64,000 nt of DNA from assembly GCA_964559865.1 (NCBI GenBank), contig CAZLJD010000030.1, positions 125,196 to 189,195 of the forward strand, read 5' to 3'. The notes beneath the pieces were generated by a model. The model saw only the letters and a list, made by a program, of their open reading frames with translations. It had not been told where the DNA came from and made no database searches. This document shows, piece by piece, positions 2,854 through 51,589 of the stretch. How positions within the stretch are numbered: the stretch's first letter is position 1; every line of letters starts with the position of its first letter. Source of the DNA: an uncultured Synergistota bacterium (lineage in GTDB: Bacteria > Synergistota > JAGHAJ01). A program made the position numbers and the translations under genes.

Positions 2854-2860
2854 TCTGGTA

Positions 2861-3193: not shown

Positions 3194-3195
3194 TT

Positions 3196-5919: not shown

Positions 5920-5920
5920 G

Positions 5921-8676: not shown

Positions 8677-8677
8677 G

Positions 8678-9687: not shown

Positions 9688-10804
9688 GCTTTTCATAGGA
9701 CCTCAACATGTTGGTATTACGGGAAACTTTATGGTTCACCTCACATTAGAAGGAGATACAGTAGTAAGTGCGGAGGCACACCCTGGTTATCTTCACCGAG
9801 GTTTCGAAAAACTCATGGAGAGAAGAGATTGGTCCATGAATGTTGCACTTATACCAAGGATATGTGTTCCGGAACCAGATGTCAATGAGGCTGCTTATGC
9901 GATGGCAGTTGAGAGCCTGATGGGGTGGGATATTCCAGAGAGGGCTAAATACATAAGGACAATAGTGCTTGAGCTTGCAAGGATATCTGCATATCTGCTT
10001 GCGATAGGTGGATATGCAGGCACGATAGGTTTGTATACTGCACCACAGTGGATGATGGGGGACAGAGATTACATTCTTGACCTGTTTGAGGAGCTGACTG
10101 GTGCACGAGTGTATCACATATTTATATTTCCTGGGGGTGTGAGGTGGGATATCCCAGATGGCTTCGAGGAACGGGTGAAGAAGGTCATGGACTATCTTGA
10201 AAGCAGACTCCAGCTCTATGATGAGCTACTCTTCAAAAACGAGGTGTTCTTCAGAAGGGCGCCTAATATAGGTGTTATTCCAAAGGATAAGGCTGTGGAA
10301 TGGGGGGTTACTGGGCCTAATCTTCGTGCATGTGGCTATGACTACGATGTCAGGAGGCTTGACCCGTACGCTGCTTACGAAGAGATGGATTTTGATGTGA
10401 TCTCCTACCCTGATAGTGTTAAGGGGTTTGATATCCTTTCTGATGGGTGTGACTGTTATGCAAGGATGGTTGTCAGAAGGGTAGAGTTGCAGGAGAGTAT
10501 AAAGATAATCCGACAGGCTGTGGATAATTTACCTCCGGGTGAAGTAACTCTAAAGAGACCCAATCCCCTTGCCTGGAAAGTACCAAAGGGATATGCGTAT
10601 GCGAGGGTTGAAAGTTCAAAGGGGGAATACGGGTACTTCGTGGTAAGTAACGGTGGTAAGAATCCGTATAGGGTGCATGTGAGGGGACCATCTTATACGC
10701 ACGGCATAAATGTCATTGAGACGATATTGAAAGGTTCAAACATAGCAGATGTTTCTCCCATAATGTTTAGCTTGGATATATGTCCACCTGACATAGAGAG
10801 GTGA
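9674..10804 (+). CDS. NuoD / [NiFe]-hydrogenase large-subunit homologue with incomplete metal-ligand motifs (MbxL/MbsL-type)
   Basis: Group-4 large-subunit-like protein; the N-terminal site reads RICVPE (Cys codon 9863-9865, Glu in place of the second Cys) and the C-terminal site reads DICPPDIER (Cys codon 10781-10783, Asp in place of the second Cys). Confidence 0.85.
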   Translation: MKEYELFIGPQHVGITGNFMVHLTLEGDTVVSAEAHPGYLHRGFEKLMERRDWSMNVALIPRICVPEPDVNEAAYAMAVESLMGWDIPERAKYIRTIVLELARISAYLLAIGGYAGTIGLYTAPQWMMGDRDYILDLFEELTGARVYHIFIFPGGVRWDIPDGFEERVKKVMDYLESRLQLYDELLFKNEVFFRRAPNIGVIPKDKAVEWGVTGPNLRACGYDYDVRRLDPYAAYEEMDFDVISYPDSVKGFDILSDGCDCYARMVVRRVELQESIKIIRQAVDNLPPGEVTLKRPNPLAWKVPKGYAYARVESSKGEYGYFVVSNGGKNPYRVHVRGPSYTHGINVIETILKGSNIADVSPIMFSLDICPPDIER

Positions 10805-10805
10805 T

Positions 10806-11267
10806 GTGATGAGTATAGTCAAGCCTTTTAAGGCGTTGCAGCACCTGTTTAAGAAACCACACACGGTTAGGATCCCTTATCAGGAGCATACAGACATAAC
10901 AGGTTTGCCTGTACCTACCGAGAGGTATAGAGGCTTTCACTCCAATGACATACAGAAGTGTATAGGGTGTCAGTTGTGCGGTAGGGTATGCCCTGCAAAT
11001 GCGATTACGTATGAAAAGTTCGAAAATGTGGAGAGCAAAATAAAGCTCAGACCGGTTGTGGACTATGGCCGGTGCTGTTACTGTGGTTTTTGCGTAGATG
11101 TGTGCCCTACAAAGTCTTTGAAACTTACACCCCGATACGAACTGGTATCTCCTAATATAAAGGACTTCAAGTTTATACCCACGGCTGAGATTGCGGGCAA
11201 GGATGATAAAGCAATCTCCATGTCGGAGGTGTTGTTCTCCCCGAAAGATTATAAACCTTCGGAATAG
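10806..11267 (+). CDS. NuoI-like 2x[4Fe-4S] ferredoxin subunit (MbxN-type)
   Basis: Two CxxCxxCxxxCP motifs (CIGCQLCGRVCP, CCYCGFCVDVCP). Confidence 0.85.
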   Translation: MMSIVKPFKALQHLFKKPHTVRIPYQEHTDITGLPVPTERYRGFHSNDIQKCIGCQLCGRVCPANAITYEKFENVESKIKLRPVVDYGRCCYCGFCVDVCPTKSLKLTPRYELVSPNIKDFKFIPTAEIAGKDDKAISMSEVLFSPKDYKPSE

Positions 11268-16985: not shown

Positions 16986-18113
16986 TTGGCAGATATCAGG
17001 TTAGAGGAGATATGGAAGATATTTGGTAAGGTTGAAGCGGTGAAGGATATGAATATTCAGGTGAGAGATGGAGAGTTTATGATCCTTCTTGGTCCGAGTG
17101 GATGTGGAAAGACAACAACTTTGAGGATGGTAGCAGGCTTGGAAGAGCCTTCGAAGGGTAGAATACTTATAGGGGATAAGGTTGTTGCTGAACCGGAAAG
17201 AGGTGTCTTTGTTGCACCGAAGGATAGAGACATAGCCATGGTATTTCAGAGTTATGCCCTTTATCCACATATGACGGTTTACGAAAACATGGCGTTTCCT
17301 TTAAAGTTGAGGAAGATCAACAAGCGAGAGATAGATAGCAGGGTAAAAGAGGTTGCTGACCTTTTGGGATTGGAGAAACTCCTTGATAGGAAGCCGAGGG
17401 AGCTTAGCGGTGGGCAGAGACAGAGGGTTGCGTTGGGTAGAGCCATAATCAGGAAACCGCAGGTCTTTTTGATGGACGAGCCACTGTCTAACCTTGATGC
17501 AAAGCTCAGGGTCAGGATGAGGGCGGAGCTTAAAAGACTACAGAGGCAGCTGGGGGTCACTACCGTTTATGTTACCCATGATCAGGTGGAAGCTATGACC
17601 ATGGGGGATCGGGTTGCGATAATAAACAACGGTGTGCTGCAGCAGGTAGGCTCTCCCGATGAGGTTTACAATAGCCCTGCCAACATGTTCGTTGCCGGTT
17701 TTATTGGTTCTCCTGCGATGAACTTTGCAGATGCTACTGTAGCTGCTGAGGATGGAGGGCTCTGGATTACTTTTAGTGGTGTGAAGTTGAAGCTCTTGCC
17801 AGAACACCAGAAGATGCTGGAAGACGGAGGGTATGTTGGTAAGGATGTAGTTTTTGGTATAAGACCTGAAGACCTGTACGATGCAGTATTTGCACAGGTA
17901 AAGGTACCCGGTGAGAATATGGCGAAGGCCAAGGTAGACATCGTAGAAAACCTCGGCAACTCGAAGATAGTTTATTTCAGTATGGACAGTATCTCGTTTG
18001 CCGGTGCCTTTCATGCAGAATCACAGGTCACAGAAGGCCAGCAGATAGATGTTGTATTTGATATGAAAAAGGCACATGTCTTTGATAAAGATACTCAGAA
18101 AGCTGTATTCTAA
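16986..18113 (+). CDS. sugar ABC transporter ATP-binding protein (MalK/MsmK-like)
   Basis: Walker A GPSGCGKTT, signature LSGGQRQR, Walker B LLMDEPLSNLD, plus C-terminal regulatory domain; TTG start. Confidence 0.9.
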   Translation: MADIRLEEIWKIFGKVEAVKDMNIQVRDGEFMILLGPSGCGKTTTLRMVAGLEEPSKGRILIGDKVVAEPERGVFVAPKDRDIAMVFQSYALYPHMTVYENMAFPLKLRKINKREIDSRVKEVADLLGLEKLLDRKPRELSGGQRQRVALGRAIIRKPQVFLMDEPLSNLDAKLRVRMRAELKRLQRQLGVTTVYVTHDQVEAMTMGDRVAIINNGVLQQVGSPDEVYNSPANMFVAGFIGSPAMNFADATVAAEDGGLWITFSGVKLKLLPEHQKMLEDGGYVGKDVVFGIRPEDLYDAVFAQVKVPGENMAKAKVDIVENLGNSKIVYFSMDSISFAGAFHAESQVTEGQQIDVVFDMKKAHVFDKDTQKAVF

Positions 18114-18890
18114 CTATTTCATCTTCCACTTTGGTGCTCTTTTTTCCAAGAAGGCGTCTATTCCTTCTTGGGCGTCTTCAAGTGTGCATATCGTAGAGAA
18201 GAATAGGTTAGAGATTTCAACTGCTTCGGGTAGAGGAAGGTCTGCCATTTTGTAGAATGCCATTTTTGTCAGTTGAAGCGCAAGTGGACTCTTTGATGCA
18301 AGCTCTTCGGCGAGTTGTTTTGTTTCTGCTTCGAGCCTCTCCTTTGGAACTACCTTGTTTATGAGGCCTATTCTTTCTGCTTCTTTGGCCTCTATAATCC
18401 TGCCCGTAAGTAGTAGCTCTAATGTCTTTTTTCTCCCCAAGCTGCGTAGCATTGGGACTGCTGGGCCTATGCACGAGAGACCGATGTTTATTGCTGTCGC
18501 ACCGAACTTCGTGCCTTCTGCAGCTATCGCAAGGTCACTGGCAGCTACGAGTCCTATACCGTTAGCGACAGCGAAACCATGCACAGATGCTATCACGGGC
18601 TTCTTCATGGACGATATGGTAATGGTCATTTCTTCCATGAGCTGTGTCGTTTCGTAATACTGAAGCATGGACATATCCTTTAGCTCTTTTACATCTATAC
18701 CTGCTGAAAATCCCTTTCCGTTGCCCTTTATAACGACTACCCTGATGTCGCTGTCTTTGTCTAGCTCTCTTAGTGCACTGTTTAACTCTGCGGCGAGTTC
18801 CTTTGTGAATGTGTTCAGGCTCTCGGGCCTGTTTAGTGTAATTGTGCCGATATGACCTTCTCTTTGGGATAGTATGGTTTTGTATTCCAT
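18114..18890 (-). CDS. enoyl-CoA hydratase/isomerase (crotonase) family protein
   Basis: Crotonase-fold blocks (VVVIKGNGKGFSAGIDVKEL, ASVHGFAVANGIGL); start set to the ATG preceded by AAAAGGAGG (track ORF extends to 18920). Confidence 0.8.
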   Translation of the reverse strand: MEYKTILSQREGHIGTITLNRPESLNTFTKELAAELNSALRELDKDSDIRVVVIKGNGKGFSAGIDVKELKDMSMLQYYETTQLMEEMTITISSMKKPVIASVHGFAVANGIGLVAASDLAIAAEGTKFGATAINIGLSCIGPAVPMLRSLGRKKTLELLLTGRIIEAKEAERIGLINKVVPKERLEAETKQLAEELASKSPLALQLTKMAFYKMADLPLPEAVEISNLFFSTICTLEDAQEGIDAFLEKRAPKWKMK

Positions 18891-18965
18891 GTTATACCTC
18901 CTTTTGAGCTTGTTATTCAAATTATACCATAAACTTGAGTTGTATGGGTCTTTGTTGTATAATCA

Positions 18966-19658
18966 GTGCGAAAGGTGGGGGTGGTGTTGGAAGAGGAGCT
19001 GAAGGGCTGGCAAGAGTTAGCTCGTAACATGGTAGAAACGCAGATAGCGAGGAGAGGGATAAAGGATAAAAGGGTGCTTCAGGTAATGAGCGCACTTCCA
19101 CGCCATCTGTTCGTCCCGTCGAGGCTTAAAGACAGTGCCTACGACGATACGCCTCTGCCGATAGGAATGGGACAAACGATATCGCAGCCTTACATGGTTG
19201 CGCTGATGACGGAGTTGTTGGCTTTGGGCGGAGGAGAGAAAGTTCTTGAGGTTGGGACAGGTTCTGGCTATCAGGCAGCTGTGCTGTGCAAACTCTGTAG
19301 AGAAGTGTGTACGATTGAGAGGGTAAAGGAGCTGATACCTATTGCCGAGGAGAATCTCAGGAAGGTGGGGTTGTCAAATTTTAAGATAAAGTATGGTGAT
19401 GGGAGTCTTGGATGGAAAGAGGAGTCGCCATTTGATGCTATCATCGTTACAGCTGCAGCACCCAAGCTACCTCAATCTCTCGTTGACCAACTGGCAGACG
19501 GGGGAAGGTTGGTTATACCAGTTGGTGATAGATATGTACAGGACCTGCTGTTAGTGTCAAAAGACAGAGGCGATGAACTCAAGAAAGAAGTGGTATCTAA
19601 GTGTGTGTTTGTTCCTTTGATAGGCAAGGAGGGGTGGAAAGGAGATGAACTACGATGA
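18966..19658 (+). CDS. pcm: protein-L-isoaspartate O-methyltransferase
   Basis: TISQPYMVALMTELL and VLEVGTGSGYQAAVL SAM-binding motifs; exact start uncertain. Confidence 0.85.
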   Translation: MRKVGVVLEEELKGWQELARNMVETQIARRGIKDKRVLQVMSALPRHLFVPSRLKDSAYDDTPLPIGMGQTISQPYMVALMTELLALGGGEKVLEVGTGSGYQAAVLCKLCREVCTIERVKELIPIAEENLRKVGLSNFKIKYGDGSLGWKEESPFDAIIVTAAAPKLPQSLVDQLADGGRLVIPVGDRYVQDLLLVSKDRGDELKKEVVSKCVFVPLIGKEGWKGDELR

Positions 19659-20215
19659 TAACCAGAGAGGAAGCTTATGAACTGGTAAAAGGACATGTTA
19701 AAGAGGATTACATGGTGAAACACATGCTTGCGGTGGAATCTGTGATGAGGGCACTTGCAAGGCACTTTGGAGAAGATGAAGAGAAGTGGGGAATAGCAGG
19801 CTTGTTACATGATCTTGACTATATGGAAGCAAAGTCTAACTTCTCTAAGCACGGCTATATCACCGTGAAGATGCTTGAGGAGAAAGGGTTAGATGTCCCT
19901 GAAGATGTTAAAAAGGCAATAATAGCCCATGTGGGACATCCTAATCATAAGAGGAAGCTGTTGATAGAAAAGGCGATCTATCCCTCAGACCCCGTTACGG
20001 GATTTATCGTAGCGGCGGCGAAGGTAATGCCTGACAAGAAGTTGGCGTCAGTGGATGTAACTTTCCTTTTAAAGAGGTTTAAGGAGAAGAGGTTTGCAAA
20101 AGGTGCAAATAGGAAGGCTATGAAGGCGTGTGAGGACATGGGACTTTCCTTGGAGGAATTTCTTGGGATAGCATTGCAAGCGATGAAAGACATTTCAGAC
20201 GAACTCGGGTTGTGA
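19655..20215 (+). CDS. HD-domain metal-dependent phosphohydrolase
   Basis: H...HD motif (HMLAVE ... LLHDLDY) in a ~186-aa protein. Confidence 0.7.
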   Translation: MITREEAYELVKGHVKEDYMVKHMLAVESVMRALARHFGEDEEKWGIAGLLHDLDYMEAKSNFSKHGYITVKMLEEKGLDVPEDVKKAIIAHVGHPNHKRKLLIEKAIYPSDPVTGFIVAAAKVMPDKKLASVDVTFLLKRFKEKRFAKGANRKAMKACEDMGLSLEEFLGIALQAMKDISDELGL

Positions 20216-20229
20216 GGAAGTGATGGATT

Positions 20230-21024
20230 GTGAAGGATGTGGTGTTGGTTGAGGATACGGCTCTTTACGGTAGGATACCTATCCTGGGTGTCCATGGTCT
20301 TTCTCAGCTGCTACAGGTAGATGGTTTGAATATCCTATACGATGTTGGTTCTGACTATCGAGTGCTTTTAAATAACGCAGCGTTCTTGGGCGTGAACCTG
20401 AGAGATGTCGATGTAGTGGTGCTCTCTCACGGGCACTATGACCATGGTAATGACCTCCACAGGGTATTGCAGGTTATAGGGAAGAAGGAGATTCCGGTTA
20501 TAGTTCACAAAGAGGTCTTCTCTAAGAAGCCACCTCTATCGTTAAACACTACGCCGGAGGATATAAAATACTGGGGCGGTAGGTTGATATACATAGAGAA
20601 ACCTTACAGGATAGGAGACAATATCTTGATTTCTGGAACTGTGCCAAGATTGAAAGGCAATCCTCATCATCCGGTATTGGATGACGGAGGTAATGTAGTT
20701 GATGAAGTGGTAGATGACATGTCTATATTTATAGATCTTGGGGAAAAGGGAATAGCTGTATTCACCGGTTGTGGGCATAGCGGGATAATAAATATAGTGG
20801 AGTATGCAAGGGAGCTGTGGGGTAAGCAGAGGATATGTTGTGTTGTTGGAGGATTGCACGGGCAGAAACAGGGTAGGGAGGTTGTGCAAAGGAGTATTGA
20901 TTTTCTCAAAGGTTTGGGTGCAGATGTATTGGCACCTATGCACTGTTCTGCAGGTATAAGAGATGGTTTGAGAGATGAACCCTCCTTTATGGGTTTGTGC
21001 TCCGGGAGTGTACTTGAGATTTGA
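20230..21024 (+). CDS. MBL-fold metallo-hydrolase
   Basis: LSHGHYDHGNDL zinc-binding motif and downstream GCGHSG. Confidence 0.7.
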   Translation: MKDVVLVEDTALYGRIPILGVHGLSQLLQVDGLNILYDVGSDYRVLLNNAAFLGVNLRDVDVVVLSHGHYDHGNDLHRVLQVIGKKEIPVIVHKEVFSKKPPLSLNTTPEDIKYWGGRLIYIEKPYRIGDNILISGTVPRLKGNPHHPVLDDGGNVVDEVVDDMSIFIDLGEKGIAVFTGCGHSGIINIVEYARELWGKQRICCVVGGLHGQKQGREVVQRSIDFLKGLGADVLAPMHCSAGIRDGLRDEPSFMGLCSGSVLEI

Positions 21025-21030
21025 GGGGGG

Positions 21031-21984
21031 ATGGAATTGAGAAGGGTGGCATTTTTTCTGGCATTTACGCTTGTGGTCTCTTCGGGGGCTGTTGCATTTG
21101 CTACCACTTATCTTTCTATGGCTACGGGTAGTCCAAGTGGGGTTTATTACCCTGTGGGCAGAGCCATAGGGGGGTTGATTACGAAGTATCTCCAGAATGT
21201 AGTTGTGAATGTAGAGGTAAGTACTGCCTCTGTGTCCAACTGTGAGGCTGTGGGAAAACACGCTGTAGACCTTGCCCTTGTCCAGAACAATGTTGCTACA
21301 TGGGCATATACGGGACGATACATGTTTAGGGAAAAGGCTATAAAGAACCTAAGAGCCATCGCTACGCTGTATCCCGAAGCCATTCAAATAGTTACATTGA
21401 AGGGCAGAGGCATAAACACTATTACTGATCTTGTAGGAAAGAGGGTGTCGATTGGTCTTCCCGGAAGTGGAACATCTATAGATGCCGTTTCTGTTCTCCG
21501 GTTGTGTGGTGTTAAGATGGAGGATCTGAAGCTGTATCACCTCTCCTTTTCTGAAACTACAAGAAGGATAGAAGATGGAAAGATAGATGCAGGCTTTGTT
21601 ACTGCGGGTTATCCTACAGCCTCGATAATGAATCTCGCAGCTCACAAGAATATAGAGCTTGTATCTATCCCTGAGGAAATGATAGAGAAGATACATTTGG
21701 ACTATCCGTATTATGTGAGGATTGTCATACCGAAGGGTACATATAAAGGGCTTGTGCACGATGTTACTACAGTTAGCTGTATGGCAATGCTCGTGGTGAA
21801 TGCTGCACTGTCTGAAAGGCTCGTCTATGACATTACGAAGACTATGTGGGAGCATATAAAGGATATATATTCTGTTCACGAAAAGGCTAAGTATATTACA
21901 CTCAAAACGGCGCTTGATGGTCTTAGTATACCGCTTCACCGAGGGGCGGAAAGGTACTACGAAGAAAAAGGGATGTTGAAATAA
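21031..21984 (+). CDS. TAXI-family TRAP-type periplasmic solute-binding protein
   Basis: Signal peptide followed by TAXI-like blocks (YYPVGRAIGG, SIGLPGSGTS, LHRGAERYY). Confidence 0.7.
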   Translation: MELRRVAFFLAFTLVVSSGAVAFATTYLSMATGSPSGVYYPVGRAIGGLITKYLQNVVVNVEVSTASVSNCEAVGKHAVDLALVQNNVATWAYTGRYMFREKAIKNLRAIATLYPEAIQIVTLKGRGINTITDLVGKRVSIGLPGSGTSIDAVSVLRLCGVKMEDLKLYHLSFSETTRRIEDGKIDAGFVTAGYPTASIMNLAAHKNIELVSIPEEMIEKIHLDYPYYVRIVIPKGTYKGLVHDVTTVSCMAMLVVNAALSERLVYDITKTMWEHIKDIYSVHEKAKYITLKTALDGLSIPLHRGAERYYEEKGMLK

Positions 21985-21990
21985 AAGATA

Positions 21991-22491
21991 ATGTACTTTT
22001 TCAGAATAAAGGTGCTTTCTGCAGTAAGTGGTGCAGTATTGACTCTTTTCTTTCTCTTTCATCCAGTTGTTTACCTTCAGTTGAGTAAGGGTAAGAAGGT
22101 GTGTCTTTACCAACCTATGGGTTTGGGAGGTGTTATTCACTTTCAGACGAGGAATTCAGTTGAGGGTAGTAGATGGGATGAGTATTGGCAGGTAGGGTGG
22201 GATGGGAAACTTTGGGTTGTTGATACCGTGTATCGTGATGAGGGGGCGGGATTCCCTATCGCCCCCTCCAAAGGAGCGCACTTTAAACAGACGGAAGAGG
22301 GTTTTGAGATATACGGTATGCATAGAATAATAACTGTTCCTCTTTACGTAAGGTTTGATGGTAAGAGGGATATCGTTATAGAGGTGGGTGGCAAGATACT
22401 TGCCCTTAAAAAGTTTGGAGAGGGTCTTTATCGTTTGGAGCTCTTTAGGGTGCCGTGGTTGAGGACATTGTTTGGAGGTGATGTGAGGTGA
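21991..22491 (+). CDS. hypothetical membrane-anchored protein (possibly DUF1850-like, often adjacent to TAXI receptors)
   Basis: N-terminal hydrophobic anchor, 166 aa; family name recalled from memory, not verified. Confidence 0.45.
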   Translation: MYFFRIKVLSAVSGAVLTLFFLFHPVVYLQLSKGKKVCLYQPMGLGGVIHFQTRNSVEGSRWDEYWQVGWDGKLWVVDTVYRDEGAGFPIAPSKGAHFKQTEEGFEIYGMHRIITVPLYVRFDGKRDIVIEVGGKILALKKFGEGLYRLELFRVPWLRTLFGGDVR

Positions 22492-23324
22492 TTGTAGATG
22501 TTCATGTGCACATACTACCACCAGAAGTAATAAAGGACATTGATCACTATAAGGCTAAAGACGAATACTTTGCACTCCTTCATAGAGATCCAAAGAGCAG
22601 ATTTGCGACGGCTGAGAGTGTTATTGAGGAGATGAACCGTAGCGGTGTAGATAGAAGTGTTGTATTCGGTTTTGCATTTAAGGATATGGGTATTTGCAGG
22701 ATGCTGAATGACTATGTAATGGACGCTGTTAGGAGGTATCCAGACAGATTGATAGGGTTCGGGGTTGTGGATCCTTTGAGCAGCAGTGTTGAGAGGGAGG
22801 TTTTAAGGTGTAAGGAGGGAGGTTTGGTTGGAATAGGGGAGCTTTTTCCTGATGGACAGGGCTTTAATGTAGGGAAACCCGAGGATTTGAAGAGGTTTAC
22901 ATCCGTGTGCAAAGAGGCTGGTATGATTGTTTCTATACACAGTAACGAACCGGTAGGGCACTACTATGAGGGTAAAGATTCTACTTATCCGGAAAAGGCT
23001 TATAGGTTTGCGTTGGCAAACCCTGATCTTGATATAATATTTGCTCATTGGGGAGGGGGGCTGTTTTTCTACGAGCTCATGCCCGAGGTTAGAAAGGCAC
23101 TCAGGCGGGTATTCTATGACACGGCGGCTTCTCCTTATCTTTATACCAAGGAGGTGTACAGGGTTGCAAGTGCTGCAGGTGTCGTTAATAAGGTACTAAT
23201 GGGTACCGATTTCCCTCTCATTGGTCAGAGTAGATATATAAGGGAGATAGAATCCAGTCTTCTAAGTGGTAGCGAGAAAACCGAGATTCTGGGAGGGAAT
23301 GCTGAAAGACTGTTTGATCTCTAA
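22488..23324 (+). CDS. amidohydrolase-family (TIM-barrel metal-dependent hydrolase) protein
   Basis: DVHVHI N-terminal metal-binding motif, internal HSNEP, C-terminal MGTDFP. Confidence 0.75.
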   Translation: MIVDVHVHILPPEVIKDIDHYKAKDEYFALLHRDPKSRFATAESVIEEMNRSGVDRSVVFGFAFKDMGICRMLNDYVMDAVRRYPDRLIGFGVVDPLSSSVEREVLRCKEGGLVGIGELFPDGQGFNVGKPEDLKRFTSVCKEAGMIVSIHSNEPVGHYYEGKDSTYPEKAYRFALANPDLDIIFAHWGGGLFFYELMPEVRKALRRVFYDTAASPYLYTKEVYRVASAAGVVNKVLMGTDFPLIGQSRYIREIESSLLSGSEKTEILGGNAERLFDL

Positions 23325-23337
23325 AGGAGGTGTTTTT

Positions 23338-23991
23338 ATGAAACCGAGAGAGATGGCATCGGTGATAGACCTTACGGTGTTGAAGCCGGATGCGACGACT
23401 GTTGACATAGATAGACTCTGTAAACAGGCTAAGAAATACGGCTTTTATAGTGTTTGTGTTGCACCGTTTTGGGCGGAGAGAGTAAAGAGGAGTCTTGAGG
23501 GTACGGATGTGAAGGTTGCCGTTGTCGTTGGTTTTCCTCTGGGAAATACAACCACGAATAACAAGTGCAGAGAGGCGGAGGAGCTTATCTCCATAGGTGT
23601 GGACGAGATAGACATGGTTGTTAACATAGGTAAGATCAAAGAGCATGATTGGGAGTTTGTGAAGCAGGAGGTCTCTGCGGTTAAAAAGATAGTGGGAAAC
23701 AGGGTCTTGAAGGTGATAATAGAGTGTTGCCTGTTGACTGACAATGAGAAAGTATCTGCGACGAGGGCAATTGCAGAGGCAGGTGCGGACTTTGTAAAGA
23801 CATCTACGGGCTTTTCTAAGGGTGGTGCGACTGTGGAGGATGTGAGGCTTTTAAAGGAGGCTGGTGGCGGCAAGTTGAAAGTCAAAGCAGCAGGAGGAAT
23901 AAGGGATTTTGAGAAGGCGCTTGCTATGGTGGAAGCGGGTGCGGATAGGATAGGTGCGTCGAGGGGACTTTCTATTATAGGGGTGGAGTGA
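23338..23991 (+). CDS. deoC: deoxyribose-phosphate aldolase
   Basis: ASVIDLTVLKPDAT, VAVVVGFPLGN, FVKTSTGF (Schiff-base Lys region), AAGGIRD; ATG 23338 preceded by AAAGGAGG. Confidence 0.9.
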   Translation: MKPREMASVIDLTVLKPDATTVDIDRLCKQAKKYGFYSVCVAPFWAERVKRSLEGTDVKVAVVVGFPLGNTTTNNKCREAEELISIGVDEIDMVVNIGKIKEHDWEFVKQEVSAVKKIVGNRVLKVIIECCLLTDNEKVSATRAIAEAGADFVKTSTGFSKGGATVEDVRLLKEAGGGKLKVKAAGGIRDFEKALAMVEAGADRIGASRGLSIIGVE

Positions 23992-25074
23992 TTGAGAAGT
24001 GGGGTTGCTTACCTTCCACTGCATGGTGGGAGGGCACCAAAGTGGTTGTTTGATAGGATGAAGAAACTGGCAAAATACATAGTTATTGCATTCGTAGAGG
24101 AGTGGGGTCCGGACCTCTTTCTCCAGAGATTGTCAGATCCGTTTTGGTTTCAGGCACTCGGCTGTGTTTTGGGTTTTGATTGGCATTCAAGTGGGCTTAC
24201 AGTTACTACTACTGCGGCTATCAAGGAAGGCATAAAGGGGATAGAAAGTGATTTGGGGTTGTTCGTGGCTGGCGGAAAGGGAAAGAGGGCACTTAAAACC
24301 CCTGATGATATAAAGCGATTTGGAGATGTTGCTGGAGTTGATGCTGAGGAGCTTGTATATGTGAGCAGGGTGGTGGCTAAGGTGGATTCCTCTGCACTCC
24401 AGGATGGTTATCAGCTTTATCATCACACCCTGTTTTTCACCAGTAGTGGAAACTGGGCAGTCATCCAGCAAGGTATGAATGAATCCACCCTTTACGCCAG
24501 GAGGTACCACTGGTTGAAGGATTCTGTTGATAGCTTTGTAGAGGAACCGCACACTGCGATCATTTCAGATGGCACTTCTTCGGTGCTGAATATGGTGGCG
24601 AAGGAGAGCAAAAATGCCAGAGATGTTGTGGTAGGCCTCACATCAGAGAAGCCGGAGAGACTCCTTAAAGAGATAAAGTCTATAAGGGAGTTAAAGTTGC
24701 CGTCCCACCATTATGTAGTAGGAAGTGTTGATCCTGATAGGATATATAGGGGATTTGTTTCGGCATACGAGCGGAATCCTGCAGACTTTGAGGAGCTTTT
24801 GGTTACGAAAAATGTTGGTCCAAAGACTATAAGGGCACTTGCACTTATAGCTGAGATACTCTACGGTACGCCGCCAAGCTTTAGAGACCCTGCAAAGTTC
24901 AGCTTTGCGCATGGTGGAAAAGATGGACACCCTTATCCAGTGGACAGGAGGGTTTATGATAACTCTATAGAGGTGCTTAAGAGAGTTGTCCAGCGCTCGA
25001 AGATCTCTCCGTTAGATAAGAATAAAGTGCTTCGGAGGTTGCAACATGCTGTAAGGAGTGGCATCGGTGGGTAG
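23992..25074 (+). CDS. conserved hypothetical protein (possibly DUF763-like)
   Basis: 360 aa, TTG start immediately after the deoC stop; LPLHGGRAPKWL ... LSDPFWFQALGCVLGFDWHSSG N-terminus; family assignment from memory only. Confidence 0.45.
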   Translation: MRSGVAYLPLHGGRAPKWLFDRMKKLAKYIVIAFVEEWGPDLFLQRLSDPFWFQALGCVLGFDWHSSGLTVTTTAAIKEGIKGIESDLGLFVAGGKGKRALKTPDDIKRFGDVAGVDAEELVYVSRVVAKVDSSALQDGYQLYHHTLFFTSSGNWAVIQQGMNESTLYARRYHWLKDSVDSFVEEPHTAIISDGTSSVLNMVAKESKNARDVVVGLTSEKPERLLKEIKSIRELKLPSHHYVVGSVDPDRIYRGFVSAYERNPADFEELLVTKNVGPKTIRALALIAEILYGTPPSFRDPAKFSFAHGGKDGHPYPVDRRVYDNSIEVLKRVVQRSKISPLDKNKVLRRLQHAVRSGIGG

Positions 25075-26062
25075 CATAAAGGCTATTGTGCTGTTTTCGG
25101 GTGGGCTGGATAGTATACTGGCAGCGAAAGTGCTAATAAAAGAAGGTATAGAGATTATACCGGTGACCTTTCGTTCCCCGTTTGTTAGCATAGAGCATGC
25201 AGTTAGGCTCTCCGAAAGGCTTTTGGGTAGATCTACTATTGTGGTGGATATATCCAGCGAAATGATGGATGTTGTGAAATACCCTCGTTATGGGTATGGT
25301 AGCCAGATGAACCCGTGTGTTGACTGTAGAATACTCACATTCAGACTGGCTGGAAACATGATGGAAGAACTCGGTACGCACTTTATGGCTACCGGTGAGG
25401 TGGTTGGGGAGAGACCTTTCACTCAGAATAGGGGTACACTCCTTTTAACTGCAAGAAAGTCAGGGTATGATGGTTATATTCTCAGGCCGCTTTCTGCGAA
25501 GCTTTTACCTCCTACGGTGCCCGAGGAGATGGGGTGGATAAATAGAGAACACCTTTTTTCTATACAGGGAAGATCTCGTAAGGAACAGTTTAGACTTGCT
25601 CAAACCTTTGGGGTGGACGAATACCCATCTCCTGCAGGTGGTTGCATCCTTACGGACCCATCTTTTTCCAAGAGGATGAAGCGCATAATCTCTTACTGGC
25701 AAGATGTGGAACTCTTTGAGGTGGAACTTTTGAAGTTGGGCAGGCACTTTATCTTTGGAAAGAAAAACTGGCTCGTAGTTGGCAGGAATAGAAGCGAAAA
25801 TAAGGATCTTGAACGGCTTTCAGCGGATAGGGGACTTTGTGTGCTGCAGGTCGTCGGTTATCCGGGACCTGTAGGGGTTCTCATGTGTAGGGGGAAAAAT
25901 AGTTGTCCTGTCTTCCTCTCGGCAGGTATTGTAGCGAGTTACAGCGATGCCCCTGTGGGTGAGACTGTTGAAGTCTCCGTTAAGAGTGGTGCAGGAGTGC
26001 AGGTGGTTGATGTAGCTGTTCGGGACAAGAAGAGGTTTAGGAAGTACATGATAGTCGTATGA
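25058..26062 (+). CDS. PP-loop ATP pyrophosphatase, MnmA/ThiI-like (probable thiolation/adenylation enzyme)
   Basis: SGGLDS PP-loop at residues 13-18, NPCVDC and AGGCILTD cysteine blocks resembling tRNA thiolase catalytic Cys; likely true start GTG 25067 after GTAAGGAG. Confidence 0.6.
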   Translation: MASVGSIKAIVLFSGGLDSILAAKVLIKEGIEIIPVTFRSPFVSIEHAVRLSERLLGRSTIVVDISSEMMDVVKYPRYGYGSQMNPCVDCRILTFRLAGNMMEELGTHFMATGEVVGERPFTQNRGTLLLTARKSGYDGYILRPLSAKLLPPTVPEEMGWINREHLFSIQGRSRKEQFRLAQTFGVDEYPSPAGGCILTDPSFSKRMKRIISYWQDVELFEVELLKLGRHFIFGKKNWLVVGRNRSENKDLERLSADRGLCVLQVVGYPGPVGVLMCRGKNSCPVFLSAGIVASYSDAPVGETVEVSVKSGAGVQVVDVAVRDKKRFRKYMIVV

Positions 26063-26970
26063 GATACATAAAACTCTACCATTCAGGGGAACTTTTCAAA
26101 AAGATAAGAGAGATAGAGAGTTACCTTTATCCGTGTACTCTATGCCCGAACAGATGTGGTGTAGATCGGGCTTTTGGAAAGGTGGGGATCTGTCGTTCTG
26201 CTGTTTCTCCCCGGGTTGCGAGTTACAACCTGCACTTTGGTGAAGAGCCTCCTCTGGTAGGTGAAGGTGGGTCAGGTACTATATTTTTTAGCGGATGTTC
26301 TTTGCACTGTGTATTTTGTCAGAACTATCCTATAAGTCACTACAATGTTGGAAATGATGTTTCAATAGGCAGGCTTGCTGAGATGATGTTGGAGCTACAG
26401 AACAGGGGAGCTGTTAACATAAATCTGGTTACTCCTACTCACTATGTACACGCTGTATTGAGAGCATTACCTATCGCAATAGAGATGGGGTTGAGTATAC
26501 CCATAGTGTTTAATTGTAGTGGATATGAAAGGGTGGAGGTTCTAAAGATACTGGAAGGGGTGATAGACATTTACCTCCCGGATGCAAAGTATGGGGATAA
26601 CGGGGTTGGAAAGAGATATTCTGGAGTGAGTGACTACTGGGAGGTGAATCGGAGAGCGCTTAAGGAGATGTTCAGGCAGAAAGGGGATAAACTGGTGGTA
26701 AACAGTGATGGAGTGGCTGTTGAAGGGATGATTATAAGGCATCTCGTTCTGCCCTCCAATGTGTCCAATAGCATCAAGGTTCTGAGATTCATCGCAGAGG
26801 AGCTCTCGGTAAATATCCCAATTAGTCTTATGAGTCAATACTTTCCTGCGTTTAGGTCAAGTAAGTATAAGGAGATCAACAGAAAACTCTTTTTACAGGA
26901 GTATGAAGAGGTGAAGGAAGCAGCCATTTCGATGGGATTTAGGGACCTTTGGATTCAGGAGATTGGTTGA
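26059..26970 (+). CDS. radical SAM protein, PflX-like (pyruvate formate-lyase activase homologue)
   Basis: CSLHCVFCQN (Cx3Cx2C) plus N-terminal CTLCPNRCGVDR cysteine cluster; ATG overlaps upstream stop (ATGA). Confidence 0.8.
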   Translation: MRYIKLYHSGELFKKIREIESYLYPCTLCPNRCGVDRAFGKVGICRSAVSPRVASYNLHFGEEPPLVGEGGSGTIFFSGCSLHCVFCQNYPISHYNVGNDVSIGRLAEMMLELQNRGAVNINLVTPTHYVHAVLRALPIAIEMGLSIPIVFNCSGYERVEVLKILEGVIDIYLPDAKYGDNGVGKRYSGVSDYWEVNRRALKEMFRQKGDKLVVNSDGVAVEGMIIRHLVLPSNVSNSIKVLRFIAEELSVNIPISLMSQYFPAFRSSKYKEINRKLFLQEYEEVKEAAISMGFRDLWIQEIG

Positions 26971-27743
26971 CACTTTGGACAGTATCTGGACTTTCTGCTC
27001 CCTACGGTTGTAACTTCTATAGGCGTGCCACAGACTGCACACGGTTTGCCCTCTCTCTGGTACACTTTCAGGTGTGAGTCGAATTTCCCTATACCTGTGT
27101 AGTGTTTTGTGCCTTTCAAGTTGCAGGCTTGTCTAATTAATTCTTTTGTGACTTTAAAGAGCGTTTGAGCCTCTTCTGGGGTTAGTGTATGTGCCTTTCT
27201 TAGAGGGTGTATTTTGGCTCTAAACAGGATTTCATCGGAGTATATGTTTCCTATACCAGCCACTACAGACTGATCCATTAGAAGGGCTTTTACCATTTTC
27301 TTCCTCTTGATAAAGTTATCCTTGAAGTATTCGTAGGAAAAGGCTTCCGATAGTGGTTCTGGTCCCATGTTTTTTATGGTTGGTATCTCTTCTGGTGAGT
27401 TTACCACGCTGATGGTTGCGAGTCTTCGTGGGTCATAAAAGCAGAATTTCTTCTCGTTTCCGCACTCAAAGACGATGCCTTTGTCGTCTATTCCGTCACC
27501 AAACTCTATTTTGCCGTTTAACCTCAAGTGGAATACCATTACCTTTTCGACCGAGGTGTGAACTACGAGGAACTTACCCTTGTGCTCCACAGATAATACC
27601 CTGCTACCTACTACGGAGTTTATATTCAAGCTGTTCTTGTCTATCATGCTTTCCCAGAAGACCCTGATGTTGAATATAACTTCCCCTTTTATGTAATCAT
27701 TTAATCCGCTTGCGATTGCTACTATTTCTGGTAGTTCTGGCAT
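26955..27743 (-). CDS. mutM: formamidopyrimidine-DNA glycosylase (Fpg/Nei family)
   Basis: N-terminal MPELPEI catalytic motif and C-terminal zinc finger CAVCGTPI ... CPKCQ. Confidence 0.85.
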   Translation of the reverse strand: MPELPEIVAIASGLNDYIKGEVIFNIRVFWESMIDKNSLNINSVVGSRVLSVEHKGKFLVVHTSVEKVMVFHLRLNGKIEFGDGIDDKGIVFECGNEKKFCFYDPRRLATISVVNSPEEIPTIKNMGPEPLSEAFSYEYFKDNFIKRKKMVKALLMDQSVVAGIGNIYSDEILFRAKIHPLRKAHTLTPEEAQTLFKVTKELIRQACNLKGTKHYTGIGKFDSHLKVYQREGKPCAVCGTPIEVTTVGSRKSRYCPKCQPIS

Positions 27744-27877
27744 GATTTACCTCCGATCCGTGTACTTTTAATTACTATACACTTATTGTCCCTTTATTTC
27801 AAGGTACTTATTGTTTGGGGCATTTAAGGGTGAATGTGAGGTTCTGGATAATTTTGTGCTTAAAGCCACGAGTAGTG

Positions 27878-27886
27878 TGGTATAAT
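27878..27886 (+). promoter_or_regulatory. possible extended -10 promoter element (TGgTATAAT) for the peptide ABC transporter operon
   Basis: TATAAT at 27881-27886 preceded by TGG; no convincing -35. Confidence 0.35.
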
Positions 27887-27915
27887 AACATAATAAACTA
27901 AACGACGAGGGGGAG

Positions 27916-29481
27916 GTGTTGGAGTTGAAGGGATCTGTGAGGTTTTTACTGGTGGGCGTTTTCATTCTTGGGATGTTTTGGGGAGTAGCTGTTGCTGGTA
28001 ATCCGAATGTGGCAATATATGCCTACAACAGCGAGATGATAACACTTGACCCGAGTACCGAATTTTCTAACTCGGTGGTGGTATTGGCTAATCTCTACGA
28101 GTGTTTGGTGAAGTATACTCCATCTGGTTTAAAACCGTGGCTTGCAGTTTCGTGGGAGGCGCTAAACGGTGGTAAGGAATGGGTGTTTCACCTACGGAGG
28201 GGTGTTAAGTTTCACAGCGGCAACGAGATGACGGCGAAGGATGTTAAGTGGTCTGTTGAGAGAACTATAAAGATGGGTGGTGGTGCGGCGTTTATATGGG
28301 ATCCTGTTAAAAAGGTAGAGGTGGTAGATAGGTATACAGTTAAGTTTGTCCTTAAGTATGCAGCTAATCTTCCGTTGATTGCTTCTGCCGGTTATGGTGC
28401 CTACATCATGGATAGTAAGACACTCTCTGAGATAGGGGACAACAAGGCTATAGCGAAGTATCTTAACAAGGGGCACGAAGCGGGTAGTGGACCATATACG
28501 TTGGTAAAGTATAACCCTAAGACTGAGATTATAATGAAAAAGTTTAATGATTACTGGGGAGGTTGGAAGAAGGGACAGATAGATATAGCAGTGGTTAAGG
28601 TGGTTCCTGACGCTTCATTGAGGGAACAGATGGTGATAAGTGGACAGGCTCAAATTACCAGGGACCTGCCAATAGATGATATACCCAAACTTGAGGATAA
28701 CAAGAAGGTTACGATAAAGCGTTCTCTATCTTATCAGGAGCTTTATGGTATGTTAAACACCCAAAAGAAGCCACTTAACAACAAGCTTGTCAGGAAGGCG
28801 CTCTCTTATGCTACGCCTTATGAGAAGATATTAAAGTATATACTTCACGACTACGGTGTTGTAGCGAATGGACCTATACCCAAGGGGATGTTTGGTTACT
28901 TCCAGGATATGAAGGGCTATTCTTACGACATTTCGAAGGCAAAACAGCTGCTTTCTAAGGCAGGATATGCAAAGGGTGGAATAAAACTGTTGCTTACCTA
29001 TATGCAGGGGGATAGCTCTGAGAAGAAGGTCGCAGAGATATTGAAGGCAGAGTGGAAAAAGATAGGCGTGGACCTCGAAATCAAGGCAATGAACTGGGAG
29101 CAGCAGTGGGCACTTGCGAAGAGTGATCCTTCGAAGGCCCAAGATGTGCTTGTGTTCTATTGGTGGCCAACATATGCAACCCCTTACGACTTTTTGTTTA
29201 ACATGTTCCACAGCGAAAAGACGATCAACTTCAACCTTTGCTATTACAGAAACCCGAACTTTGATAAGTTGATAGATGAGGCCGTTGCCCTTGAGGGTAC
29301 TGATGTCAAGAAGTCTTCTGCCCTTTACAGGAAGGCGGAGGAGATCCTTTTAGACGATGCACCGGCTATATTCTTTTATTCTCCGGATGCGATATATGTT
29401 GTTAACAGAGGTGTAAAAGGGTTTAAGGCGAATCCAGGATACACGCAAGTTGTATTTTTCTATCAGTTGTTCAAGCGGTAG
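27916..29481 (+). CDS. ABC transporter substrate-binding protein, peptide/nickel family (OppA/DppA-like)
   Basis: Signal peptide; 521 aa with family-5 SBP blocks; followed by cognate permeases and ATPases. Confidence 0.85.
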   Translation: MLELKGSVRFLLVGVFILGMFWGVAVAGNPNVAIYAYNSEMITLDPSTEFSNSVVVLANLYECLVKYTPSGLKPWLAVSWEALNGGKEWVFHLRRGVKFHSGNEMTAKDVKWSVERTIKMGGGAAFIWDPVKKVEVVDRYTVKFVLKYAANLPLIASAGYGAYIMDSKTLSEIGDNKAIAKYLNKGHEAGSGPYTLVKYNPKTEIIMKKFNDYWGGWKKGQIDIAVVKVVPDASLREQMVISGQAQITRDLPIDDIPKLEDNKKVTIKRSLSYQELYGMLNTQKKPLNNKLVRKALSYATPYEKILKYILHDYGVVANGPIPKGMFGYFQDMKGYSYDISKAKQLLSKAGYAKGGIKLLLTYMQGDSSEKKVAEILKAEWKKIGVDLEIKAMNWEQQWALAKSDPSKAQDVLVFYWWPTYATPYDFLFNMFHSEKTINFNLCYYRNPNFDKLIDEAVALEGTDVKKSSALYRKAEEILLDDAPAIFFYSPDAIYVVNRGVKGFKANPGYTQVVFFYQLFKR

Positions 29482-51575: not shown

Positions 51576-51589
51576 TAACCTGCTATGGT

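What the first reader, a model, noticed from the sequence alone, without database searches (positions are those of the whole stretch)
23992..26970. Translationally coupled triad: uncharacterised protein, PP-loop thiolase-like ATPase and PflX-like radical SAM enzyme
Seen in sequence: three genes are tightly chained. The first starts at TTG directly after the deoC stop. The PP-loop gene overlaps the first by about 8-17 nt, and the radical SAM start overlaps the PP-loop stop (ATGA). The PP-loop protein has SGGLDS plus NPCVDC and AGGCILTD Cys blocks reminiscent of MnmA/ThiI-type sulfur-transfer enzymes. The third has Cx3Cx2C plus an extra N-terminal Cys cluster (PflX-like). Inference: a three-component adenylation, thiolation and radical chemistry module, for example an RNA nucleoside or cofactor modification pathway, whose substrate is not evident from context.
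Basis: partly seen in the sequence, partly recalled or inferred. Interest (0 to 1): 0.6.

Follow-up and report, generated by a model that had tools for sequence, protein, structure and literature searches.

The report
Three adjacent genes, not one pathway
Three tightly packed genes (a protein of unknown function, a predicted tRNA-thiolating enzyme and a radical SAM enzyme) are really there, but they sit together only in this lineage, whose genome packs nearly all genes this tightly, so they are probably three separate housekeeping genes rather than one pathway.

Summary
DUF763 (23992-25074), a ThiI-like PP-loop ATPase fused to an NFACT-R RNA-binding domain (25067-26062) and a PflX-type radical SAM enzyme (26059-26970) abut or overlap by 0, 8 and 4 nt, and all the named motifs are present.

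The inferred three-enzyme module is not supported.
- Overlap is the rule in this window: 24 of 50 co-directional gene pairs touch or overlap, and the triad ends a run of 10 unrelated, equally packed genes.
- The PP-loop protein belongs to the ThiI+NFACT-R family that Burroughs and Aravind (2014) predicted to be an alternative stand-alone tRNA 4-thiouridine synthase.
- Among 80 DUF763 loci from different species, only one has this PP-loop gene next to it. Among 80 PflX loci none has DUF763. Among 9 diverse PP-loop loci none has DUF763 or PflX.
- The triad recurs only in close relatives (72-83% identity), where the whole region is syntenic.

A weaker lead remains. DUF763 lies near PflA-like radical SAM genes (PflX or AmmeMemoRadiSam type) in about five lineages, and both families recur beside DNA, RNA or protein repair genes. 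DUF763 has no solved structural relative. Interest is low to moderate.

The parts
23338..23991 (+). deoC (deoxyribose-phosphate aldolase), the gene just upstream. Its stop codon abuts the TTG start of DUF763.
   Evidence: TIGR00126 E = 3.5e-78, 262 bits against a cutoff of 117. JGI calls it as 217 aa. The longest ORF starts at 23266.
23992..25074 (+). DUF763 protein, 360 aa, function unknown. It has a helix-hairpin-helix-like motif around residues 266-291 and many invariant His, Asp, Lys and Arg residues.
25067..26062 (+). ThiI-like PP-loop ATPase fused to a C-terminal NFACT-R_2 RNA-binding domain, 331 aa (an alternative GTG start lies at 25058). It is the predicted alternative tRNA 4-thiouridine synthase.
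   Evidence: Pfam: NFACT-R_2 2.2e-12, ThiI 23.2 bits and tRNA_Me_trans 23.7 bits, both just above the gathering score. Best PDB hit is T. maritima ThiI 4KR6, E = 0.003. Homologues are named 'tRNA 4-thiouridine(8) synthase ThiI' by NCBI. The family is described in PMC4075521.
25097..25114 (+). PP-loop motif SGGLDS (ATP pyrophosphatase signature).
   Evidence: Read in the sequence. Invariant S-G-G-L-D-S in 22 homologues.
25310..25327 (+). NPCVDC, the CxxC pair of the ThiI-type cysteine triad.
   Evidence: Read in the sequence. N82, P83, C84, D86 and C87 are invariant (numbering from GTG 25067).
25643..25645 (+). Third invariant cysteine, in the GGC motif (C193 counted from GTG 25067).
25739..26050 (+). 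NFACT-R_2 domain (formerly DUF814-like), with the two family-specific arginines R226 and R240.
   Evidence: Pfam match to residues 228-331 of the 334-aa ORF and the full profile, 1-104 of 104. The invariant arginines are; the family description is.
26059..26970 (+). PflX-type (COG1313-like) radical SAM enzyme, 303 aa. Its ATG overlaps the stop of the PP-loop gene as ATGA.
   Evidence: PF04055 33.8 bits. All glycyl-radical activase models of NCBIfam score far below their cutoffs. Identity is about 55% across phyla, and JGI names homologues 'putative pyruvate formate lyase activating enzyme'. hhalign against the AmmeMemoRadiSam radical SAM enzyme gives probability 97.8%, E = 1e-12.
26134..26193 (+). 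N-terminal cysteine cluster CxxCPxxC...GxC (C26, C29, C33, C45), probably the site of an auxiliary Fe-S cluster.
   Evidence: Invariant in 20 homologues. It aligns with the same motif of the AmmeMemoRadiSam radical SAM enzyme.
26296..26319 (+). Radical SAM motif CxxxCxxC (C80, C84, C87).
26955..27743 (-). fpg/mutM (formamidopyrimidine-DNA glycosylase), convergent with the PflX gene and overlapping its 3' end by 16 nt.
   Evidence: NF002211 226.6 bits against a cutoff of 212; all three Pfam domains are present.
18966..23324 (+). Upstream part of the same co-directional, tightly packed gene run: PCMT, HD hydrolase, metallo-beta-lactamase fold, TAXI-TRAP binding protein (NMT1_3), DUF1850 and Amidohydro_2.
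   Evidence: Gaps from -4 to +14 nt. Pfam assignments come from the syntenic relative L001 and. A promoter-like site lies at 18935-18963, but the number of such sites is no higher than in shuffled sequence.

Best explanation
The region holds three separately conserved, single-domain-architecture housekeeping-type genes. They have come to lie next to each other at the end of a long, compact, probably co-transcribed gene run in this one lineage. They are not a dedicated three-enzyme pathway.

Gene 2 most likely acts alone, or with general sulfur-relay proteins, as the tRNA U8 4-thiolation enzyme. The inferred mechanism is this: the NFACT-R domain binds tRNA in place of the THUMP domain of canonical ThiI; the PP-loop adenylates O4 of the uridine using ATP; and sulfur is delivered through the invariant CxxC plus Cys triad, as a persulfide or by way of an Fe-S cluster. 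All of this rests on family membership and was not tested.

Gene 3 is a PflA-like radical SAM enzyme with an auxiliary N-terminal Cys cluster. It is a full-length homologue of the AmmeMemoRadiSam-system radical SAM enzyme, and its substrate is unknown.

Gene 1 (DUF763) is a very conserved stand-alone protein with a helix-hairpin-helix-like motif and no solved structural relative. It is probably a nucleic-acid-binding enzyme.

The overlapping start and stop codons reflect genome-wide compaction, not a specific coupling of these three genes.
For: Compaction: 24 of 50 co-directional pairs overlap or abut, the median gap is 1 nt, and 10 unrelated genes are chained from 18966 to 26970. GC content is uniform and there is no island.

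Family assignment: Pfam and NCBIfam results. The PP-loop protein carries every sequence feature of the ThiI+NFACT-R family.

No conserved linkage:
- 80 DUF763 loci from different species: the PP-loop gene is adjacent in 1 (L023), and true PflX lies within 8 kb in 4 loci, or 2 lineages.
- 80 PflX loci: 0 hold DUF763 and 1 holds the PP-loop gene, 6 kb away.
- 9 diverse PP-loop loci: none holds DUF763 or PflX.
- The next-closest DUF763 (62% identity) has neither next to it.

The triad recurs only in relatives with 72-83% identity, where the whole 10-gene region is syntenic.

Each family has its own, different recurrent neighbours: TusA for the PP-loop family (literature); UvrB and Memo for PflX; PCMT and PolX for DUF763. 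DUF763 shows no domain fusions among the 150 best of 3745 representative clusters.
Against: - One independent genome (L023) also has DUF763 followed on the same strand by the PP-loop gene. The chance expectation for that exact adjacency in 80 genomes is about 0.03-0.04.
- DUF763 lies near PflA-like radical SAM genes (PflX, AmmeMemoRadiSam type or a relative) in 7 of 80 loci, about 5 lineages, against about 0.5-0.9 expected. A DUF763/radical SAM link is therefore not excluded.
- Neighbourhood samples were limited to the 80 best matches per scan, and the metagenome contigs are short (median 6.3 kb of flank in total).
- Co-occurrence of the three families across whole genomes could not be tested.
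- None of the three families has an experimentally shown function.
Confidence: 0.65

Rival explanations
1. DUF763 and the PflX-type radical SAM enzyme form a functional pair: either the radical SAM enzyme acts on or with DUF763, or both act on the same damaged macromolecule. The PP-loop gene is then a passenger inserted between them in this lineage.
For: PflA-like radical SAM genes with the same N-terminal Cys cluster lie within 8 kb of DUF763 in 7 of 80 species-level loci:
- True PflX in three Actinomycetota loci (L031, L034, L064) and in L045.
- AmmeMemoRadiSam radical SAM enzyme (TIGR04337, above its cutoff) directly upstream in L032 and four genes upstream in L081.
- A divergent relative directly upstream in L017.
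The expectation for two single-copy families is about 0.5-0.9 loci. PflX and the AmmeMemoRadiSam radical SAM enzyme are full-length homologues. Both DUF763 and PflX recur beside repair genes: PolX, Nth, PCMT, RtcA and a PD-(D/E)XK nuclease for DUF763; UvrB, Fpg, EndoV and PolX for PflX.
Against: - None of 80 PflX-anchored loci contains DUF763.
- Most DUF763 loci (about 90%) have no such radical SAM gene nearby.
- The three Actinomycetota loci are one lineage.
- Anaerobes carry several PflA-like activases, which raises the chance expectation.
- No DUF763/radical SAM fusions were seen.
Confidence: 0.17
2. One reading: the three proteins form one pathway that builds a modified RNA nucleoside or a cofactor. 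DUF763 would bind the nucleic acid, the PP-loop enzyme would adenylate and thiolate, and the radical SAM enzyme would finish the chemistry.
For: - The genes are co-directional and their reading frames overlap.
- The arrangement is kept in relatives with 72-83% identity.
- The PP-loop protein has an RNA-binding domain, and DUF763 has an HhH-like motif.
- PP-loop plus radical SAM pairs exist in known pathways such as QueC/QueE (my own knowledge, not tested here).
Against: - The full triad was not found in any of 169 loci anchored on the three families outside the close relatives.
- In those relatives the whole region is syntenic, so its retention says nothing specific about the triad.
- Overlaps are the norm in this genome.
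- The PP-loop family has a complete, self-sufficient predicted role.
Confidence: 0.07
3. DUF763 is a partner of the ThiI+NFACT-R enzyme, for example a tRNA-handling or sulfur-relay accessory that replaces TusA. PflX would then be unrelated.
For: An unrelated, apparently high-GC genome (L023) has RelA/SpoT, then DUF763, then ThiI/NFACT-R on one strand with a 130-nt gap. The chance expectation for this adjacency is about 0.03-0.04 per 80 genomes. No TusA-like motif is present in the window.
Against: - It is a single recurrence.
- Nine PP-loop loci lack DUF763.
- DUF763 has only two nearly invariant cysteines (C58, C74), which gives no evidence of a sulfur-carrier role.
- DUF763 is abundant in Dehalococcoidia and Actinomycetota, which are not among the phyla listed for ThiI+NFACT-R in PMC4075521.
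Confidence: 0.07

Closest known systems
ThiI+NFACT-R (ThiI+DUF814) family, predicted alternative tRNA 4-thiouridine synthase (Burroughs and Aravind 2014, RNA Biol 11:360, PMC4075521)
   Same: The architecture is the same: a PP-loop domain followed by NFACT-R_2, with no THUMP and no rhodanese domain. The protein has SGGxDS, CxxC plus an internal Cys, GRxRxxQ, TxxE and two conserved arginines in the NFACT-R domain. Homologues are annotated as tRNA 4-thiouridine(8) synthase ThiI.
   Different: The TusA neighbour that the paper reports as the family's only conserved association is absent from the window. Here the gene is instead flanked by DUF763 and PflX. The family's activity is a prediction; the searched papers held no experimental test.
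Canonical ThiI (THUMP, PP-loop, with or without rhodanese), e.g. Thermotoga maritima ThiI, PDB 4KR6
   Same: The PP-loop fold and the probable chemistry, adenylation of U8 followed by sulfur transfer. It is the best PDB sequence match.
   Different: Similarity is weak (E = 0.003, PP-loop region only). The THUMP RNA-binding domain is replaced by a C-terminal NFACT-R_2 domain, and there is no rhodanese domain.
AmmeMemoRadiSam system radical SAM enzyme (NCBIfam TIGR04337)
   Same: It is homologous to the window's PflX over about 250 columns, including the N-terminal CxxCPxxC...C cluster and the CxxxCxxC motif (hhalign probability 97.8%). PflX genes lie within about 1 kb of Memo genes in 4 lineages.
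   Different: The window protein gave no TIGR04337 match at E <= 0.01, and other PflX proteins score 21-38 bits against the cutoff of 220, so PflX is a sister family, not a member. No Memo gene is detectable in the window; AMMECR1 was not searched for. The function of that system is itself unknown.
Glycyl-radical enzyme activases (PflA/PFL-AE, NrdG)
   Same: The radical SAM core. The best PDB match is E. coli PFL-AE 3C8F (E = 1.4e-5).
   Different: All activase models score 16-29 bits against cutoffs of 126-430. No glycyl-radical enzyme gene is among the identified neighbours. PflX has an extra N-terminal Cys cluster that is not part of the stretch matching E. coli PFL-AE (the match covers only profile positions 79-197).
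Pfam DUF763 (PF05559)
   Same: Full-length, high-scoring member (E = 4e-134).
   Different: Nothing distinguishes the window copy from other members. The family has no known function, and the only paper found that mentions it does so in passing.

Membership tests
ThiI+NFACT-R (PMC4075521) | PP-loop ATP pyrophosphatase motif SGGxDS | tested here: met
   SGGLDS at 25097-25114, invariant in 22 homologues.
ThiI+NFACT-R (PMC4075521) | ThiI-specific CxxC motif plus a conserved internal cysteine | tested here: met
   C84 and C87 (NPCVDC) and C193 (GGC) are invariant. The feature is as described.
ThiI+NFACT-R (PMC4075521) | C-terminal NFACT-R (DUF814-type) domain with two near-invariant arginines and without the DxxxH of NFACT proteins | tested here: met
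   PF18297 NFACT-R_2, E = 2.2e-12, full profile length. R226 and R240 are invariant. The absence of DxxxH was not checked separately.
ThiI+NFACT-R (PMC4075521) | Family-specific loop motifs GRxRxxQ and TxxE | tested here: met
   GRSRKEQ (G168, R169, R171 and Q174 conserved) and T150-x-x-E153.
ThiI+NFACT-R (PMC4075521) | No THUMP and no rhodanese domain | tested here: met
   The protein is 331 aa, and the only Pfam matches are PP-loop families and NFACT-R_2.
ThiI+NFACT-R (PMC4075521) | TusA gene in the neighbourhood (the family's only conserved association, not universal) | tested here: not met
   No G-x-x-CP-x-P motif in any frame of the window. The neighbours are DUF763 and PflX. TusA was also not seen in 9 other PP-loop loci.
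ThiI+NFACT-R (PMC4075521) | Mutually exclusive with canonical THUMP-ThiI within a genome; forms s4U8 in tRNA | not testable with these tools
   This needs the whole genome and an experiment.
Glycyl-radical enzyme activase (PflA, NrdG and similar) | Score above the curated cutoff of an activase model, and a glycyl-radical enzyme partner gene | tested here: not met
   Best scores are 29 bits against a cutoff of 425 and 27 against 131. No glycyl-radical enzyme is among the identified neighbours.
AmmeMemoRadiSam system radical SAM enzyme (TIGR04337) | Score of at least 220 bits, and adjacent Memo and AMMECR1 genes | tested here: not met
   TIGR04337 is not among the window protein's hits at E <= 0.01. 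No Memo homologue is found in the window; AMMECR1 was not searched for. The protein is homologous, but it is a sister family.
Radical SAM superfamily | CxxxCxxC motif and a PF04055 match above the gathering score | tested here: met
   C80, C84 and C87; PF04055 scores 33.8 bits against 29.5.
DUF763 (PF05559) | Full-length match above the gathering score | tested here: met
   447 bits against 35.5, profile positions 1-319 of 319.
   The full triad was found in 0 of 169 anchored loci outside relatives of 72-83% identity.
Anti-phage defence systems (PADLOC) | A significant match to a defence-system protein model | tested here: not met
   No matches for genes 1 and 3. Gene 2 gave only noise (E = 0.0035-0.008).

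The most novel reading that the evidence does not exclude
DUF763 has a fold with no solved relative, carries an HhH-like motif, and is about 55-60% identical across bacterial phyla. It may be the working partner or target of PflA-like radical SAM enzymes that carry an N-terminal auxiliary Cys cluster (PflX or AmmeMemoRadiSam type), within an uncharacterised system for repairing or maintaining nucleic acids or other macromolecules. In this lineage that pair would have captured the tRNA-thiolase gene between its two genes.
Probability: 0.15. Interest if true: 0.7.

Novelty: new member of a known kind. Interest (0 to 1): 0.3.

Why it matters
As proposed, a new adenylation, thiolation and radical pathway, the finding would have pointed to an unknown RNA or cofactor modification. 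The evidence instead says the adjacency is lineage-specific, so the main value is negative: in very compact genomes, overlapping reading frames should not be read as functional coupling.

Two by-products are worth keeping.
- The window gives one more member of the still untested ThiI+NFACT-R family, which would be a simple target for a thiI complementation test.
- DUF763 and PflX are both very widespread, strongly conserved families of unknown function. Both recur next to repair genes (PolX, Nth, Fpg, UvrB, EndoV, PCMT, RtcA), and DUF763 recurs next to PflA-like radical SAM genes. This gives concrete, testable hypotheses for two 'conserved hypothetical' families.

Tried and rejected
- **Domain fusions of DUF763.** A profile search of 1.84 billion representatives found 3745 hits. 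The 150 best are all stand-alone, and Pfam found nothing else in nine of the longer or N-terminally extended ones.
- **Literature.** DUF763 is mentioned in passing in one 2005 paper. 'PflX' with 'radical SAM' and 'COG1313' each gave no paper. 'DUF814' with '4-thiouridine' gave only the 2014 prediction paper. 'AmmeMemoRadiSam' appears only in gene lists.
- **Defence-system membership.** Rejected.
- **RNA elements in 18000-28500.** None at Rfam gathering thresholds.
- **Promoter and terminator scan.** The counts equal those of shuffled sequence, so the scan is uninformative.
- **Horizontally acquired island.** GC content is uniform at 0.42-0.48, so there is no sign of one.
- **Source organism.** It could not be named: the cluster look-up returned no names.
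- **QueC/QueE-type pair.** Rejected. Only the first 32 residues (the PP-loop) match QueC, below the cutoff, and the radical SAM enzyme matches no QueE model.
- **My first 'PflX cluster' at DUF763 loci.** It was a single-linkage artefact that mixed true PflX with AmmeMemoRadiSam-type enzymes. I split it after pairwise identities and NCBIfam scans.


Full report
**1. What is there**

ORF listing and direct reading of the sequence confirm three co-directional genes.
- Gene 1 (23992-25074, 360 aa) starts at TTG immediately after the deoC stop codon. This start aligns with the first Met of 22 homologues.
- Gene 2 has two candidate GTG starts. GTG 25067 is preferred: AAGGAG lies 8 nt upstream, it agrees with an independent JGI gene call of 331 aa, and it aligns with the ATG of the 72%-identical homologue. 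With this start the overlap with gene 1 is 8 nt.
- Gene 3 (26059-26970, 303 aa) overlaps the gene 2 stop as ATGA. Its 3' end overlaps the convergent fpg gene by 16 nt.

**2. Is the chaining special?**

No. With a simple longest-ORF tiling of the window, 24 of 50 co-directional neighbouring pairs have a gap of 0 or less, 39 have a gap of 20 nt or less, the median gap is 1 nt and 97% of the window is coding.

The triad is the tail of a run of ten co-directional genes (18966-26970): PCMT, an HD hydrolase, a metallo-beta-lactamase-fold protein, a TAXI-TRAP binding protein, DUF1850, an amidohydrolase, DeoC, and then the three genes. All gaps lie between -8 and +14 nt once the supported deoC (23338) and PP-loop (25067) starts are used. 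Base composition is uniform. No Rfam element interrupts the run, and the promoter and terminator counts do not exceed those of shuffled sequence. Overlapping frames therefore say little about function in this genome.

**3. What the proteins are**

*Gene 2* combines a ThiI/MnmA-type PP-loop domain, which scores just above the Pfam gathering scores, with a C-terminal NFACT-R_2 RNA-binding domain (E = 2e-12). Its best PDB match is T. maritima ThiI. This is exactly the ThiI+DUF814 (NFACT-R) family that Burroughs and Aravind (2014) described and predicted to be an alternative tRNA 4-thiouridine synthase. In their model NFACT-R replaces THUMP, and TusA is the only conserved neighbour (PMC4075521). 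The window protein has every sequence feature they list: the CxxC plus Cys triad, GRxRxxQ, TxxE and two arginines in NFACT-R. I found no experimental follow-up.

*Gene 3* is a radical SAM protein (PF04055) that scores far below the cutoff of every glycyl-radical activase model. JGI annotates homologues as 'putative pyruvate formate lyase activating enzyme'. These homologues are about 55% identical across phyla and share seven invariant cysteines: C26, C29, C33 and C45, plus C80, C84 and C87. A profile-profile comparison shows full-length homology to the AmmeMemoRadiSam-system radical SAM enzyme, N-terminal cluster included (probability 97.8%, E = 1e-12).

**4. Is the linkage conserved?**

I anchored on each family in turn.
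- *DUF763.* In 80 loci from different species, tblastn with the window proteins found the PP-loop gene in one locus (L023, directly downstream on the same strand). True PflX was found in four loci, three of them from a single Actinomycetota lineage.
- *PflX.* In 80 metagenome loci, none held DUF763 and one held the PP-loop gene, 6 kb away.
- *PP-loop.* Nine diverse homologues were looked up with precomputed Pfam annotation. They came from Thermodesulforhabdus, Poribacteria, Synergistetes, Syntrophales and Syntrophobacterales records and four unnamed ones (names as given). None had DUF763 or a PflX-type gene beside it. One had an unrelated 620-aa radical SAM protein upstream.
- *Next-closest DUF763.* The 62%-identical homologue has ABC-transporter genes downstream.

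The triad recurs only in relatives of 72-83% identity, where the entire region from PCMT to fpg is syntenic. That retention carries no independent information.

**5. Residual signals**

Two things stop me from calling the adjacency pure chance.

First, L023 (RelA/SpoT, DUF763, ThiI/NFACT-R) is an independent recurrence of the DUF763 to PP-loop order. Its expected frequency is about 0.03-0.04 in 80 genomes.

Second, the BLAST cluster that I first labelled PflX at DUF763 loci turned out to be heterogeneous. It contains true PflX in L031, L034, L064 and L045. It contains the AmmeMemoRadiSam radical SAM enzyme, above its curated cutoff, in L032 (directly upstream of DUF763) and L081. It contains a divergent relative in L017, also directly upstream. 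That makes seven loci, about five lineages, against roughly 0.5-0.9 expected for two single-copy families. The true background is higher in anaerobes, which carry several activases.

Both DUF763 and PflX also recur beside repair genes.
- DUF763: PCMT (8 loci), PolX (7), a PD-(D/E)XK nuclease-like protein (5), Nth (4), RtcA (4) and a DNA methylase (4).
- PflX: UvrB directly upstream (8 loci, with the five complete PflX proteins about 60% identical to one another), Memo (6 loci, 4 lineages), and Fpg-PflX-EndoV-Memo-PolX in one lineage.

In the window, PCMT, DeoC and Fpg are nearby. These are leads, not proof.

**6. Most likely mechanism**

I take the three genes to be functionally independent, with confidence 0.65.

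Gene 2 would carry out ATP-dependent adenylation of tRNA U8 followed by sulfur transfer through its Cys triad, possibly by way of an Fe-S cluster as in other CxxC plus Cys tRNA thiolases (that last point is my own knowledge and was not tested). NFACT-R would act as the tRNA-binding module, as inferred in PMC4075521. PflX would cleave SAM at the CxxxCxxC cluster, use the N-terminal cluster as an auxiliary site, and act on an unknown substrate. DUF763 would bind nucleic acid through its HhH-like element and catalyse an unknown reaction.

The rivals are a DUF763-PflX pair (0.17), the full three-enzyme pathway (0.07) and a DUF763-PP-loop pair (0.07).

**7. Novelty and score**

Each gene is an ordinary member of a family already on record, so I rate the finding as a new member of a known kind. 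The proposed module is not supported. Interest is 0.3, and it rests mainly on the side leads for two widespread families of unknown function.

Noticed in passing
L083, L095, L100, L105, L106, L113, L114, L119 (metagenome loci): A PflX-type radical SAM gene lies immediately downstream of uvrB (median gap 55 nt) in 8 of 80 PflX loci. The five complete PflX proteins among them are only about 60% identical to one another. The expectation for one given single-copy gene is about 0.2 loci.
   Followed up: partly
L085, L097, L110, L150, L154, L161: PflX lies within about 1 kb of a Memo-family gene (PF01875) in 6 loci, or 4 lineages. PflX is also a full-length homologue of the AmmeMemoRadiSam radical SAM enzyme (hhalign 97.8%). 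PflX may therefore be a second radical SAM partner of Memo.
   Followed up: partly
L141, L150, L153, L154, L161: One lineage (PflX 86-92% identical) has the order MltG, Fpg, a small protein, PflX, EndoV, Memo, an unnamed gene, PolX, although not every locus holds every gene. In the window PflX is likewise next to fpg, but convergent (26955-27743).
   Followed up: partly
L031, L034, L060, L064, L022, L072 and others among L003-L082: DUF763 recurs next to PCMT (8 loci), PolX (7), Nth (4), RtcA (4, Dehalococcoidia), a PD-(D/E)XK nuclease-like protein (5), an N6/N4 DNA methylase (4) and Sir2 (4). It lies next to a Macro-domain gene in L045 and next to DeoC in the WOR-3 locus L054. This is a repair or ADP-ribose flavoured neighbourhood for a family of unknown function.
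   Followed up: partly
L032:6899-9068 and L017:299-2647: An AmmeMemoRadiSam-type radical SAM gene (TIGR04337, 278 bits, in L032) or a divergent relative (L017) sits directly upstream of DUF763 on the same strand. Sir2 precedes it in L032, and no Memo or AMMECR1 gene was seen among the neighbours I annotated.
   Followed up: partly
L023:1011-5729: RelA/SpoT, DUF763 and ThiI/NFACT-R lie on one strand in an unrelated genome that appears to be high in GC. This is the only independent recurrence of the DUF763 to PP-loop order.
   Followed up: yes
window 21031-22491; L164:6060-9815; L168:7086-10858: A TAXI-TRAP transporter gene pair (NMT1_3 binding protein plus DUF1850) lies within a few genes of the ThiI/NFACT-R gene both in the window and in two related loci, one of them from a Synergistetes record. 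This is probably coincidence.
   Followed up: no
window 2058-11267: A long run of overlapping membrane-protein and hydrogenase-like ORFs looks like an Mrp/Mbh-type membrane-bound hydrogenase cluster, judged from the translations only. Together with the hyp-like genes at 51748-54136, it suggests an anaerobe. The 45% GC content, Glu/Lys/Val-rich proteins and very compact genome may suggest a thermophile, but that is only an impression.
   Followed up: no
window 51562-51783: The short ORF here translates to '...RRGFESPWERQ...', which looks like a read-through of a tRNA gene (T-arm GGTTCGAATCC). It is probably a tRNA and not a protein gene.
   Followed up: no
window 18966-19658: A PCMT (protein-L-isoaspartate O-methyltransferase) gene opens the 10-gene run that ends with the triad. 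PCMT is also the most frequent specific neighbour of DUF763 in other phyla.
   Followed up: partly
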